DNA of 64,000 nucleotides from Gammaproteobacteria bacterium. GTDB lineage: Bacteria > Pseudomonadota > Gammaproteobacteria > JAURND01. The stretch's first letter is position 1, and each line of letters begins with the position of its first letter. The DNA lies in the NCBI GenBank assembly GCA_035546635.1, contig DASZWJ010000034.1, positions 159,548 to 223,547 of the forward strand. The letters run 5' to 3'. Positions 23,234 to 26,200 of the stretch are shown here, piece by piece. The position numbers are program-made.

Positions 23234-26200
23234 TAAATAGAGCTTGCTTCACCCCCTTTGAAAAAGGGGGCCGTAGGCCATAAGGCCTACGGGGGGATTT
23301 AAAGAGTTTTGGGTGCGCAATATGGTGTGTTAGTACTCCCAGCTTTTCAAATCCCCCTCAGGCCTTCAGCCTTCGACCCCCTTTTTCAAAGGGGGTAAGA
23401 AGCGCCTGTTGACAGTCTTAACTTCAAATCCAGCAACCGCGGCTCCAGTTTTGCAGCATATTGATCAAACCCACTATTGCGAAACGCCTTAAGCTGTTCA
23501 ATACATTGCTTTTGCAGCATAGCAATCTCAGGGCTAGTGTAAACTTGTTTACCGCCACGGAAAATCGGTACCAGCAAATCTGCCTGATGCTCTGCTTCAG
23601 GAAACAGAGCGCGATCATCAATACCCGTTTCCACATCATAAATCACATCACCCAGAAAACTTCCTCCCTGAAAATAACGTCGTGTGGCAAGTATCCCGGG
23701 TAGAGTTGTTTTATTTGGGCTATCAGAAATTTTAAGCTTATAGTCCCACTGCTGTGCAGCATTTTTTATCGCACTTAATTTGTAAACAAAGTCCATTGCG
23801 GGTTGGTCATAAGCGGTCACCAGGCGTGTACCTACTCCCCAAAGATCAATCGCAGCGCCATTGGCTTTTAAATTAGCTATAGAATATTCGTCCAAATCGC
23901 CACTGGCCAAAATCTGTGTTTCTTGAAAACCAGCCGCATCGAGCATTTTGCGTCCAGCTTGACTCAAGACGGCAAGATCACCTGAGTCTAAGCGAATAGC
24001 CAGCAGTTTATGCCCTTGTTCGTGCAGGGTTTTGCCAATTTTAATGGCGTTATGAATACCTTGCAGGGTATTGTAAGTATCCACCAGCAAAATCACGTTA
24101 GTGGGCATAGCCTTAGCAAAACCCGCAAAAGCACTCAGTTCATCATCGAAGGCCATAATCCAGCTGTGTGCTTGAGTTCCCATGGCGGGAATATGATAAA
24201 GCTGGCCGGCTAATACATTAGAAGTACCTGTACAACCCCCGATGTATGCAGCTCGGCTGGCTAACAGTCCGCCATCAGGACCTTGGGCGCGCCGTAATCC
24301 GAACTCTATAACCGGATTGGGATTGGCTGCATAGCAGATACGCGTCGCTTTAGTGGCAATAAGCGAGGAAAAATTAATGAAGTTAATCAAAGCAGTTTCT
24401 AGCAGCTGACACTGCAAAATAGGTCCTTTAATGCGCAATAAAGGTTCGTGAGGGAATACCACTGTACCTTCAGGAATAGCATCGATATCGCAGCTGAAAC
24501 GTAATTCGGCAAGAAATTTTAAAAATTCTTCCGTGAATAATGGGGTATTGGCAGGGGATTTCAGGGTGCGTAGGTAATTGAGTTCAGCTTCAGCAAATTT
24601 CCAATGGTTGATGAAATCTATGATATTTTCAAGGCCGCAGCAGATCGTGTAGTTTCCTTGAAACGGGTGACGCCGGAAAAATAAATGGAATACTGCTTCT
24701 TGTTGGTGTTTATTCAGTTGCCAATAGCTGAAAGCCATGGCGAGCTGGTAAAAGTCAGTTAATAAGGGGGAGAAGGTGGGGGTTGGCATATTGGTTAGGG
24801 TAAGTTCCAGAAGGTAGCTTTTTTTCTCCTTCTCCCATCCCACAAGGGGATTCCCTTCGGTCACAGACGGGAGAAGGAAAAAGGCCAGGGCTGTAAGAGG
24901 AATTTTAACTTACATCATTGGTCCGGTAGGCGGCATACCTCCGCCCTTTAACATATTCAGATTCCGCATCATTCGCATCATATTATTACCTTTGAGTTTT
25001 TTCATCATTTTTTGCATCTGCAGAAATTGTTTTAGCATACGATTGATGTCTTGCACCTGAGTGCCAGAACCTGCCGCAATGCGGCGTTTGCGTGAGCCGC
25101 CGATTAATTCTACATGGCGTCTTTCTTTGGGTGTCATGGAATTAATAATTGCTTCCATTTGCTTGAATAATTTATCACTCACCATATTTTGGGCGGCAGG
25201 TGGAATAGCCATGCCTGGAAATTTACTTAGAATAGAAGACAAGCCACCCATATTGCGCATTTGTTGCAATTGCATTAGGAAGTCATTCAGATCAAATTCT
25301 TTACCGCCTTTTTTGATTTTTTTGGCAAGTTTCTTGGCTTGTTTCTGGTCTACCTTGCGCTGCACCTCTTCAACCAAAGAAAGAATGTCACCCATACCCA
25401 AAATGCGTGAGGCCATACGATCTGGATAAAATGCGTCCAAAGCATCAATTTTTTCGCCTACGCCGACAAACTTAATCGGTTTGCCAGTGATATGTCGAAT
25501 AGACAGTGCAGCGCCGCCACGTGCGTCGCCGTCAATTTTGGTGAGGATAATTCCGGTTAGGGGTAGCGCATCATTGAAGGCTTTAGCCGTGTTGGCGGCA
25601 TCCTGGCCGGTCATGCTATCGACTACGAATAAAGTCTCTATCGGATTGATGGCTTGGTGGATTTCGCGGATTTCCGCCATCATTTCTTGATCGATATGCA
25701 AGCGACCGGCGGTATCAATTAGCACCACATCAATAAATTGTGATTTAGCTTGCTGTATAGCACCCTTTGCAATAGCAACCGGTGATTGACTGGCGTCACT
25801 GGGATAGAATTCGACGCCAATTTGTTCAGCCAGGGTTTTTAACTGTGCTATCGCAGCGGGGCGGTAAATATCGGCGCTGGTGACTAATACGCTTTTGTTT
25901 TTACGTGTTTTTAACCAGTTTGCGAGTTTTGCTGTGGTGGTGGTTTTTCCTGAACCCTGTAATCCAGCCAGCAAAATAATGGCTGGCGGCTGGGTTTGTA
26001 GATTGATATCGGCATAAACTGAACCCAGTAGCTCTAAGATGGCATCATGGACGATTTTAACTAAGGCTTCTCCGGGTTTTAAGCTGCGTAAAACCTCGGC
26101 GCCTAGGGCTTTAGAGCGTACCGTCGTTAAAAAATCATTGATAACCGGCAAAGCCACGTCGGCTTCAAGGAGCGCTAAGCGTACTTCCTGCAAGGTTTCT

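What the first reader, a model, noticed from the sequence alone, without database searches (positions are those of the whole stretch)
24826..24895. Family B: GGGAGA-hairpin REP-like repeats at five or more intergenic sites, some in tandem or inverted arrays
Sites are 11100-11270 (two direct units of about 43 bp plus an inverted partial), 17530-17692 (an inverted pair around a 23-bp-stem hairpin), 24826-24895, 43319-43423 and 48668-48760. They share cores such as CTCCCaCAAGGGGAGAGG or TCTCCCGCaaGCGGGAGA, followed by GGGGATACAGTRCTTWAC or by aaRaaGcCaGGGCTGTAAtAGG. All are intergenic, often at operon ends. They behave like REP/BIME elements but with a distinct consensus.
Basis: seen in the sequence. 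Interest (0 to 1): 0.55.

Follow-up and report, generated by a model that had tools for sequence, protein, structure and literature searches.

The report
BoxC-type palindromic intergenic repeat mosaics
The flagged sequences are real, hairpin-forming intergenic repeats. Their shared core is the already described BoxC / "triplex motif" repeat of E. coli and many other bacteria, here joined to lineage-specific arm sequences and gained recently at gene junctions in an uncultured gammaproteobacterium.

Summary
All five sites exist. The hairpin TCTCCC-N3-9-GGGAGA occurs 5 times against 0 expected, and GGGAGARGG occurs 14 times against 0.4.

The core (CCYTCTCCC, loop, GGGAGARGG) is not a distinct consensus. 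It is blocks 1 and 2 of the BoxC / PIT / TMECO repeat (Holder et al. 2015, PMC4666352). One window copy (17629-17665, minus strand) fits the three-block published pattern apart from a 4-nt second loop (published: 3 nt), and a close relative carries canonical type-A copies.

In this genome (MAG GCA_964386165.1, 43% GC) the core forms the tip of long hairpins. Their arms come from three or four reusable modules, which gives BIME-like mosaics.

Relatives lack the elements at the orthologous sites. Four sites were checked by sequence and a fifth by gene coordinates only. At argG|argH, two outgroups show that the spacer is a gain. One copy is split by a 62-nt perfect palindrome flanked by an 8-bp direct repeat.

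The sites are gene junctions or a divergent promoter region, not operon ends. None looks like an intrinsic terminator. No REP-type GTAG/CGTC tag and no RAYT gene is present in the window. Whether a RAYT exists elsewhere in the genome could not be tested.

Verdict: a new member of a known kind, of modest interest.

The parts
11127..11216 (.). Site 1: 90-nt long hairpin. An inverted unit plus unit 1 of arm module b (GGGGATACAGTGCTTAACCTGACGCTTATGCC). The tip is CCCTCTCCC-ACAAG-GGGAGAGGG at 11161-11183.
   Evidence: (I10). Fold z = -7.7. Logan contig L127 ends at 11190.
11218..11259 (+). Site 1: second direct 42-nt unit (GGGGAGAGGATGCAGTGCTTAACTTGACGCCTATGCCACAAA), 81% identical to unit 1 at 11176-11217.
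   Evidence: (D3).
17481..17530 (-). Site 2, left flank: a partial inverted copy of the distal arm motif (GGGCATAGGCGTCAACTTAAG is the reverse complement of ...TTGACGCCTATGCC).
   Evidence: compared by eye with 11236-11256. Weak.
17541..17578 (+). Site 2: degenerate BoxC-like unit. The hairpin CCTTCTCCCGC-TATG-CGGGAGAAGG runs directly into GGATGAGGGAG, with no second loop.
17559..17644 (.). Site 2: central hairpin joining the two units. The arms are 34 nt and 85% complementary; 23 bp are paired in the fold.
   Evidence: I11. Fold z = -11.2.
17629..17665 (-). Site 2: the only window copy that fits the published TMECO pattern. It reads CCCTCTCCC GCTTGC GGGAGAGGG GCAG GGGTGAGGG; the second loop is 4 nt rather than 3.
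   Evidence: 1 match, 0 expected. The pattern is from PMC4666352. The E. coli positive control matched (L133).
17657..17681 (+). Site 2: copy of arm module b (GGGAGAGGGGATACAGTACTTTAC).
   Evidence: (D3).
24828..24877 (.). Site 3 (the finding's own coordinates): the 9-bp stem CCTTCTCCC/GGGAGAAGG encloses a 31-nt interior. The interior holds a residual tip (CCC-ACAAG-GGG) and most of module d (CAAGGGGATTCCCTTCGGTCACAGACGGGAGA, 24843-24874), whose 3' end runs into the stem.
   Evidence: Fold z = -1.6 only. Logan contigs L001 and L002 end at 24855 and 24856.
24869..24902 (+). Site 3: arm module c (GGGAGAAGGAAAAAGGCCAGGGCTGTAAGAGGAA). It is 84% identical to 48728-48759 and 91% complementary to 48689-48722.
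   Evidence: (D16, I9).
43317..43340 (+). Site 4: left half of module d copy 2 (CAAGGGAATTCCCTTCGGTCACAG), 96% identical to 24843-24866. It ends in the left copy of the 8-bp direct repeat GGTCACAG (43333-43340).
   Evidence: (D11).
43341..43402 (.). Site 4: 62-nt insert. It is a perfect palindrome (27-nt arms, 100% complementary) with the tip CCTTCTCCC-ACAAAG-GGGAGAAGG.
   Evidence: I14. Fold z = -9.9. (no other copy).
43403..43421 (+). Site 4: right copy of the direct repeat GGTCACAG (43403-43410), followed by the right half of module d (ACGGGAGAGGG). Nineteen of 20 bases match 24859-24878.
   Evidence: (D5). That this is a target-site duplication is inferred.
43426..43436 (+). Site 4: the distal motif CGCCTATGCC, shared with the ends of the module b units at sites 1 and 2.
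   Evidence: by eye.
48664..48764 (.). Site 5: long hairpin of arm module c around the tip CCTTCTCCC-CTTGT-GGGAGAAGG (48714-48736). A further inverted arm copy lies at 48668-48681. The element fills the argG|argH spacer.
   Evidence: Fold z = -6.3. Logan contig L132 ends at 48716. The spacer is a gain relative to a relative and two outgroups.
62930..62943 (-).

Best explanation
Family B is a lineage-specific mosaic built around a known repeat. Its invariant core, CCYTCTCCC, a 4-7-nt loop, then GGGAGARGG, is the first two blocks of the BoxC / PIT / TMECO motif. That motif is a G/C-rich intergenic repeat whose full three-block form (with a further GGGTGAGGG) folds into a purine-motif intrastrand triplex in single-stranded DNA in vitro.

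In this uncultured gammaproteobacterium the core sits at the tip of long hairpins. The stems are extended by a few reusable arm modules:
- b: GGGGATACAGTGCTT...CGCYTATGCC
- c: RAARAAGCYAGGGCTGTAAKAGG
- d: CAAGGGRATTCCCTTCGGTCACAGAC

Shown here:
- The elements are non-coding.
- They are richer in G+C than their surroundings.
- Four of the five form very stable hairpins.
- Close relatives lack them at the same gene junctions.
- At argG|argH the spacer is a gain in this lineage.

Inferred:
- They are non-autonomous, selfish or near-neutral DNA that spreads by insertion. One nested insertion carries an 8-bp target duplication.
- They survive only where insertion is harmless, at gene junctions.
- They are recognised as a hairpin, probably on single-stranded DNA, by an enzyme supplied in trans. 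Its identity is unknown.
- They do not act as terminators.
For: Core identity:
- The published consensus and the E. coli copies are.
- The E. coli hrpB|mrcB pair has the same layout as 17541-17665: hairpin, G block, spacer, C block, hairpin.
- The window has one match to the pattern. The relative has two canonical type-A matches (sequences).

Statistics. Folding.

Presence or absence in relatives:
- ffh|pncB: a 120-nt spacer here against 1 nt in L123, and a different 655-nt repeat-filled spacer in L125.
- hfq|HAD: the 165-bp block is missing from both L123 and L125.
- argG|argH: genes overlap in the relative against a 126-nt spacer here. ald|isochorismatase: genes overlap against a 180-nt spacer here.
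- argG and argH also overlap in two outgroups, so this spacer is a gain.
- A gene also overlaps the start of htpG in a 92%-identical relative, known from coordinates only.
- The relative has its own copies at sites that are empty in the window.

Nested insertion with an 8-bp direct repeat.

Multi-copy signal: short-read contigs end inside three of the elements.

Not terminators. Holder et al. cite work showing no promoter or terminator activity.
Against: - Only one of six window hairpins has the third block, so most copies cannot form the triplex that defines TMECO. The shared 9-bp stem is short and of low complexity, so part of the resemblance could be convergence.
- No mobilising enzyme was found.
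- No target duplication was seen at any primary insertion site.
- The arms of the 62-nt 'insert' are unique. It may therefore have arisen locally rather than by transposition. MAFFT also offers a second alignment of that region.
- Except at argG|argH, the absences in relatives could be losses rather than gains here.
- Palindromes alone can break de Bruijn graph assemblies, so the contig ends are not proof of high copy number.
Confidence: 0.7

Rival explanations
1. REP/REPIN elements mobilised by a REP-associated tyrosine transposase (RAYT). The hairpins would be bound on single-stranded DNA by a single-copy HUH/Y1 enzyme encoded elsewhere in the genome and flanked by family B units.
For: - The units are palindromic and strictly intergenic. 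They occur as inverted doublets (17541-17665; L123 6030-6140) and in tandem arrays (11176-11259), as REPINs and BIMEs do.
- They are gained and lost quickly between relatives.
Against: - No GTAG or CGTC tetranucleotide lies at any hairpin foot. These tags mark the two large REP superfamilies (PMC3733652).
- No PF01797-type protein is encoded in the 64 kb.
- Holder et al. found no link between the homologous E. coli motif and mobile genetic elements.
- The core is shared across phyla, whereas REP sequences tied to a RAYT are lineage-specific (my own knowledge of that literature).
Confidence: 0.15
2. Miniature inverted-repeat transposable elements moved by a DDE transposase. CCYTCTCCC(GC) would be the terminal inverted repeat around a variable interior of 5 to about 33 nt, and insertion would duplicate the target.
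For: - An 8-bp direct repeat, GGTCACAG, flanks the 62-nt palindrome nested inside a copy of module d.
- In relatives the same stems enclose a recurring interior of about 30 nt, GAAAGGAGTTTGT..., in both orientations (L125 11845-11900; L126 1424, 1600 and 7474).
Against: - Only one duplication was seen, and none flanks the simple hairpins.
- The nested element's arms have no other copy.
- The elements are much smaller than typical MITEs.
- No transposase is present in the window.
Confidence: 0.1
3. Functional cis-acting RNA hairpins. Transcribed within operons, they would stabilise upstream mRNA, uncouple translation or attenuate read-through, as shown for some E. coli REPs.
For: - Four of the five sites lie between co-directional, probably co-transcribed genes.
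- The hairpins are very stable.
Against: - Orientation relative to transcription is mixed. The mRNA would carry the ACAAG loop at two sites and its complement at two.
- No U-tail follows the stems, and none is called terminator-like.
- The same junctions lack any element in relatives, where the genes overlap.
- One site lies between divergent genes.
- No Rfam family matches.
- PIT motifs had no promoter or terminator activity in E. coli.
Confidence: 0.05

Closest known systems
BoxC / PIT / TMECO intrastrand triplex motif (Bachellier et al. 1990s; Hoyne et al. 2000; Holder et al. 2015, NAR 43:10126, PMC4666352)
   Same: - Blocks 1 and 2 are the same sequence (CCCTCTCCC, loop, GGGAGAGGG).
- Strictly intergenic, with no strand bias and no terminator features.
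- Occurs as inverted pairs around a spacer.
- Copy number and presence vary sharply between close relatives.
- One window copy and two copies in the relative match the published three-block pattern, apart from the window copy's 4-nt second loop.
   Different: - Five of six window hairpins lack the third G block.
- The AAGG variant of the stem (CCTTCTCCC/GGGAGAAGG) predominates.
- The core is extended into 60-110-nt hairpins by lineage-specific arm modules.
- The host is a 43% GC uncultured gammaproteobacterium.
- Insertions sit at junctions of genes that overlap in relatives.
REP / BIME / REPIN elements with RAYT (Stern 1984; Bertels and Rainey 2011, PMC3116915; Di Nocera 2013, PMC3733652)
   Same: Short intergenic palindromes combined in direct and inverted orientation into mosaics. 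Inverted doublets form long hairpins. Turnover within a lineage is fast.
   Different: No GTAG or CGTC tag. No RAYT is seen in the accessible DNA. The core is shared across phyla rather than being specific to one lineage.
Small dispersed repeats of heterocyst-forming cyanobacteria
   Same: Very small repeat modules found nested inside one another and inside hairpins, giving mosaics without an associated transposase.
   Different: Different sequences and a different phylum. The nesting here rests on a single clear case (43341-43402) plus the loop inserts in relatives.

Membership tests
BoxC / TMECO triplex motif | C-rich 9-nt block CCCTCNCCC, a loop of 3-6 nt, then the complementary G-rich block GGGNGAGGG | tested here: met
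   Exact at 11161-11183 and 17642-17665. The other tips carry the variant CCTTCTCCC/GGGAGAAGG, which the literal pattern does not cover.
BoxC / TMECO triplex motif | A second G-rich block GGGNGAGGG after a 3-nt loop, which gives a purine-motif intrastrand triplex | tested here: inconclusive
   One of six window hairpins has it (17629-17665, minus strand), with a 4-nt loop. The copy at 17541-17578 has the block but no loop. The other four lack it. The relative L123 has two canonical TTA-loop copies.
BoxC / TMECO triplex motif | Always intergenic, multi-copy, often in inverted pairs | tested here: met
   All sites are intergenic. There is an inverted pair at 17541-17665. Copies occur in three related genomes or contigs.
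BoxC / TMECO triplex motif | Triplex formation by the single strand (shown by CD and NMR for the E. coli motif) | not testable with these tools
   The folding tool models Watson-Crick pairs only. Indirect support comes from 146 copies in other genomes, of which 108 carry the third block. There the third block co-varies with block 2 in the mirror sense: 53 G/G, 52 A/A, 3 mixed, 0 of the opposite mix.
REP / REPIN (RAYT-associated) | A conserved GTAG (or CGTC) tetranucleotide at the foot of the palindrome | tested here: not met
   The flanks of all six hairpins are listed, and none carries such a tag. GACG occurs about 20 nt away inside the module b arms, not at a hairpin foot.
REP / REPIN (RAYT-associated) | A RAYT (Y1 transposase, PF01797) gene in the same genome, flanked by the repeats | not testable with these tools
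   None is present in the 64-kb window or in the fetched loci of relatives. The rest of GCA_964386165.1 could not be read.
REP / REPIN (RAYT-associated) | Inverted doublets of a 20-40-nt palindromic unit that form a larger hairpin | tested here: met
   17541-17665 and 11127-11216 in the window, and L123 6030-6140.
MITE | Terminal inverted repeats plus a target-site duplication of fixed length | tested here: inconclusive
   There is one 8-bp direct repeat, around 43341-43402. None flanks the other hairpins. The empty sites in relatives are too diverged to define the insertion boundaries.
Intrinsic terminator | A G+C-rich stem-loop followed by a run of T on the transcribed strand | tested here: not met
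   No family B hairpin appears among the terminator-like sites. In contrast, two copies of the unrelated family A do (18207, 23292).

The most novel reading that the evidence does not exclude
The BoxC hairpin may be the recognition tip of a very small mobile-DNA system that is still active and independent of any transposase in cis.
- It inserts at gene junctions.
- It also inserts into copies of itself, with an 8-bp target duplication.
- The third G block, where present, is kept by selection for triplex formation. Supporting this, the third strand co-varies in the mirror sense across phyla, and in Alphaproteobacteria a variable compensatory hairpin is tolerated inside the second loop.
- It is carried between phyla by phages: the canonical motif occurs in more than 120 IMG/VR contigs.

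This lineage, with polymorphic sites between genomes about 90% identical, would then be a natural system for catching the still unknown mechanism by which BoxC-type repeats spread.
Probability: 0.15. Interest if true: 0.7.

Novelty: new member of a known kind. Interest (0 to 1): 0.33.

Why it matters
BoxC/TMECO repeats have been known for about thirty years, but nobody knows how they spread or what they do. This window adds little to the catalogue. It does offer a clean comparative setting:
- a clear gain at a junction that is overlapping in relatives and outgroups (argG|argH);
- four further sites that are empty in near relatives;
- one nested insertion with a target duplication;
- a modular structure in which the same tip carries different arms.

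For annotation, the practical points are that these elements break short-read assemblies, generate spurious ORFs (10920-11300, 43173-43463 and 48599-48889), and should not be called terminators.

Tried and rejected
- Cyanobacterial origin. HIP1 (GCGATCGC) occurs once against 0.6 expected, so this was rejected.
- Known RNA family. Rfam at gathering score on the window and on 17 loci from other genomes, and at E-value threshold on the repeats, gave only generic hairpin hits to plant and animal miRNA models. Rejected.
- Hammerhead-like GAUGAG in the third block. Rfam gave no support, so this was dropped.
- Pyrimidine-motif (C+.G-C) triplex on the C-rich strand. This was my first reading of the mirror symmetry. 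The literature shows that the relevant, pH-independent form is the purine motif on the G-rich strand.
- Searching papers for the literal sequences found nothing relevant. A keyword search found Holder et al..
- A metagenome scan for arm module b found a single contig, so genome-wide counts could not be obtained that way.
- The look-up of the window's last gene found nothing.
- The 92% HtpG relative has no stored DNA, so site 1 could be compared by gene coordinates only.
- Chance or low complexity as an explanation was rejected by the shuffles.
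Full report
**1. The observation**

Each contains the hairpin CCYTCTCCC, a short loop, then GGGAGARGG.
- The pattern TCTCCC-N3-9-GGGAGA occurs five times in the window against none in 100 shuffles.
- The 9-mer GGGAGARGG occurs 14 times on the two strands against 0.41 expected.
- Thirteen of the 14 lie in the five sites. The last one (24768-24776) encodes the conserved N-terminal PTFSP of nicotinate phosphoribosyltransferase and is not a repeat copy.

One of them reveals a sixth site, a solo arm at 62930-62943. An independent repeat search recovered the two direct 42-nt units and their inverted partner at site 1, the central hairpin at site 2, and the arm similarities between sites 3 and 5 and between sites 3 and 4.

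Folded as single strands, sites 1, 2, 4 and 5 are far more stable than shuffles (z = -7.7, -11.2, -9.9 and -6.3). The finding's own span at 24.8 kb is not (z = -1.6). It is a composite in which a 9-bp stem encloses 31 nt.

**2. Organism and gene context**

The window comes from an uncultured gammaproteobacterial MAG (GCA_964386165.1, contig CAYLQX010000027.1, 274,903 bp). It has 43% GC.

The sites lie:
- between a sigma-70-family gene and htpG;
- between a HAD hydrolase gene and hfq, which are divergent;
- between ffh and pncB;
- between an alanine dehydrogenase/PNT-family gene and an isochorismatase gene;
- between argG and argH.

These are therefore gene junctions inside probable operons, plus one divergent promoter region. 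They are not operon ends. None of the hairpins is followed by a T-run, and the terminator scan calls none of them. Their orientation relative to transcription is mixed.

**3. Anatomy**

The shared hairpin is the tip of longer hairpins whose stems are continued by a small set of modules.
- Module b (GGGGATACAGTGCTTAAC...CGCYTATGCC) forms site 1 and the right edge of site 2. In a relative it extends to 50-nt arms (L123 6030-6140).
- Module c (RAARAAGCYAGGGCTGTAAKAGG) forms site 5, the right side of site 3 and the solo arm at 62.9 kb.
- Module d (CAAGGGRATTCCCTTCGGTCACAGAC) occurs at sites 3 and 4.

At site 4, module d is interrupted by a 62-nt perfect palindrome with its own GGGAGAAGG tip. The palindrome is flanked by the 8-bp direct repeat GGTCACAG, whereas the copy at site 3 is uninterrupted. 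I read this as a nested insertion with target duplication. The arm sequence has no other copy in any DNA I hold, and MAFFT offers a second alignment of the region, so this step is an inference.

In two relatives the same stems enclose a recurring interior of about 30 nt, in both orientations.

**4. Evidence for gain and loss**

I fetched orthologous regions from two relatives. One has Ffh 92% and ArgG 86% identical to the window (contig_63216; loci L123 and L129). The other has Ffh 94% identical (L125).

| Junction | Window | Relatives |
|---|---|---|
| ffh\|pncB | 120-nt spacer | 1 nt in L123; a different, repeat-filled 655 nt in L125 |
| hfq\|HAD | 165-bp block present | absent from both L123 and L125 |
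| argG\|argH | 126-nt spacer | genes overlap by 8 nt in L129 |
| ald\|isochorismatase | 180-nt spacer | genes overlap by 4 nt in L129 |
| sigma factor\|htpG | 302-nt spacer | in a 92%-identical relative a gene ends 4 nt inside htpG; coordinates only, no DNA |

- Two outgroups (ArgG 76% identical) also have overlapping argG and argH. That spacer is therefore a gain in the window's lineage, and it was accompanied by a new ArgG tail and a shortened ArgH N-terminus.
- Conversely, the relative carries family members at three junctions that are empty in the window.
- Short-read contigs of the same organism, from several sequencing runs, end inside sites 1, 3 and 5. This is what repeated k-mers cause, although palindromes alone can also break assemblies.

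**5. What the core is**

The hits came from Alpha- and Gammaproteobacteria, Chloroflexota, Nitrospirota, Elusimicrobiota, Planctomycetota, Deinococcus and a cyanobacterium.

The flanks of these hits are not random.
- The stem is extended in nearly every copy.
- In 108 of 146 copies, a block CCCCTCAYCC lies upstream on the strand that carries the ACAAG loop. Its complement lies downstream in only 2.
- That block is the mirror of the purine arm, and it co-varies with it: 53 C with G, 52 T with A, 3 mixed, 0 of the opposite mix.

This led me to a triplex reading. A literature search then showed that the motif is already known. It is BoxC, rediscovered as PIT and then as TMECO, with the pattern 5'-CCCTCNCCC N3-6 GGGNGAGGG N3 GGGNGAGGG. 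Holder et al. (PMC4666352) report that it:
- has 23 copies in E. coli K-12 and 3,610 copies in 262 proteobacterial genomes;
- is always intergenic and often occurs in inverted pairs;
- forms a purine-motif triplex as single-stranded DNA in vitro, but not detectably in vivo;
- has no promoter or terminator activity;
- is associated with local instability;
- has no known mobilising element.

The E. coli hrpB|mrcB pair has the same layout as window 17541-17665. The published pattern, with the second loop relaxed to 1-6 nt, matches the window once (17629-17665, minus strand). It matches the relative L123 twice and the E. coli control twice. The other five window hairpins have only the first two blocks.

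**6. Comparison with REP/RAYT**

Family B behaves like REP/BIME elements in being intergenic, palindromic, mosaic and rapidly turned over. However:
- no hairpin has the GTAG or CGTC tag at its foot that defines the two large REP superfamilies (PMC3733652);
- no Y1 transposase is encoded in the window or in the fetched loci of relatives.

The rest of the genome could not be read, so the RAYT question stays open. I rate it at about 0.15.

**7. Verdict**

The repeats are real, and their behaviour as insertion-polymorphic intergenic palindromes is well supported. Their core is a known motif, so this is a new member of a known kind with lineage-specific arm modules.

What lifts it slightly above routine:
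- the polarised gain at a gene junction that overlaps in relatives and outgroups;
- the single nested insertion with a target duplication;
- two side observations, namely the mirror-sense covariation of the third block across phyla and the presence of the canonical motif in more than 120 IMG/VR contigs.

Interest: 0.33.

Noticed in passing
window 13283-13480, 18196-18251, 23237-23400, 35193-35352, 61742-61880: A second, unrelated repeat family. It consists of TCACCCCCTTTGAAAAAGGGGG plus a CCGTAGGCC...GGCCTACGG hairpin followed by a T-run, often as inverted pairs. Two copies are called terminator-like, unlike family B.
   Followed up: partly
window 37010-37167; L125 11505-11650: An inverted pair of TGTCATTCCCGCGAAGGCGGGAACCCAT units (65-nt arms, 78% complementary). 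The same motif occurs in the ffh|pncB spacer of a relative.
   Followed up: no
window 59427-59470: The palindrome CTGTCATCCTGAGCGCAAGCGAAGGATGACAG. A short-read contig of the same organism (L132) starts exactly here, which suggests another multi-copy repeat.
   Followed up: no
window 836-867 and 32395-32426: Two copies, 94% identical, of GTAACTATTCACCACAGGAYTGAAACGGC. One lies next to a tRNA gene and the other after tilS. The short-read contig L001 starts at the second copy.
   Followed up: no
window 46504-47164 and 29100-29770: PIN-domain toxin genes with small upstream ORFs lie between housekeeping genes (argH|etfB, gspH|hydrolase). The first is absent at the same place in the relative contig_63216.
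   Followed up: partly
loci L003-L122 (other genomes): In Alphaproteobacteria the BoxC-like motif carries a GC-rich hairpin of variable length and sequence, but always paired, inside the second loop (ACCCCTCATCCG-hairpin-CACCTTCTCCC...). The third block co-varies with the purine arm in the mirror sense in 105 of 108 copies. The literal TMECO pattern does not cover this variant.
   Followed up: partly
loci L136 onward (IMG/VR): The canonical three-block motif occurs in more than 120 viral or proviral contigs, and the scan stopped at its limit. Holder et al. reported no association with phages or plasmids. The contexts were not examined, and some contigs may be host DNA.
   Followed up: no
window 24768-24776: The 5' coding region of pncB contains CCCACCTTCTCCCCC (PTFSP). 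It is identical to the repeat's C-rich arm and lies about 50 nt from the site 3 element. It is conserved in L125 and partly in L123. This may be coincidence, or it may be microhomology relevant to insertion.
   Followed up: partly
window 3135-6596: A 1,153-aa ORF with no Pfam hit at E <= 0.01.
   Followed up: no
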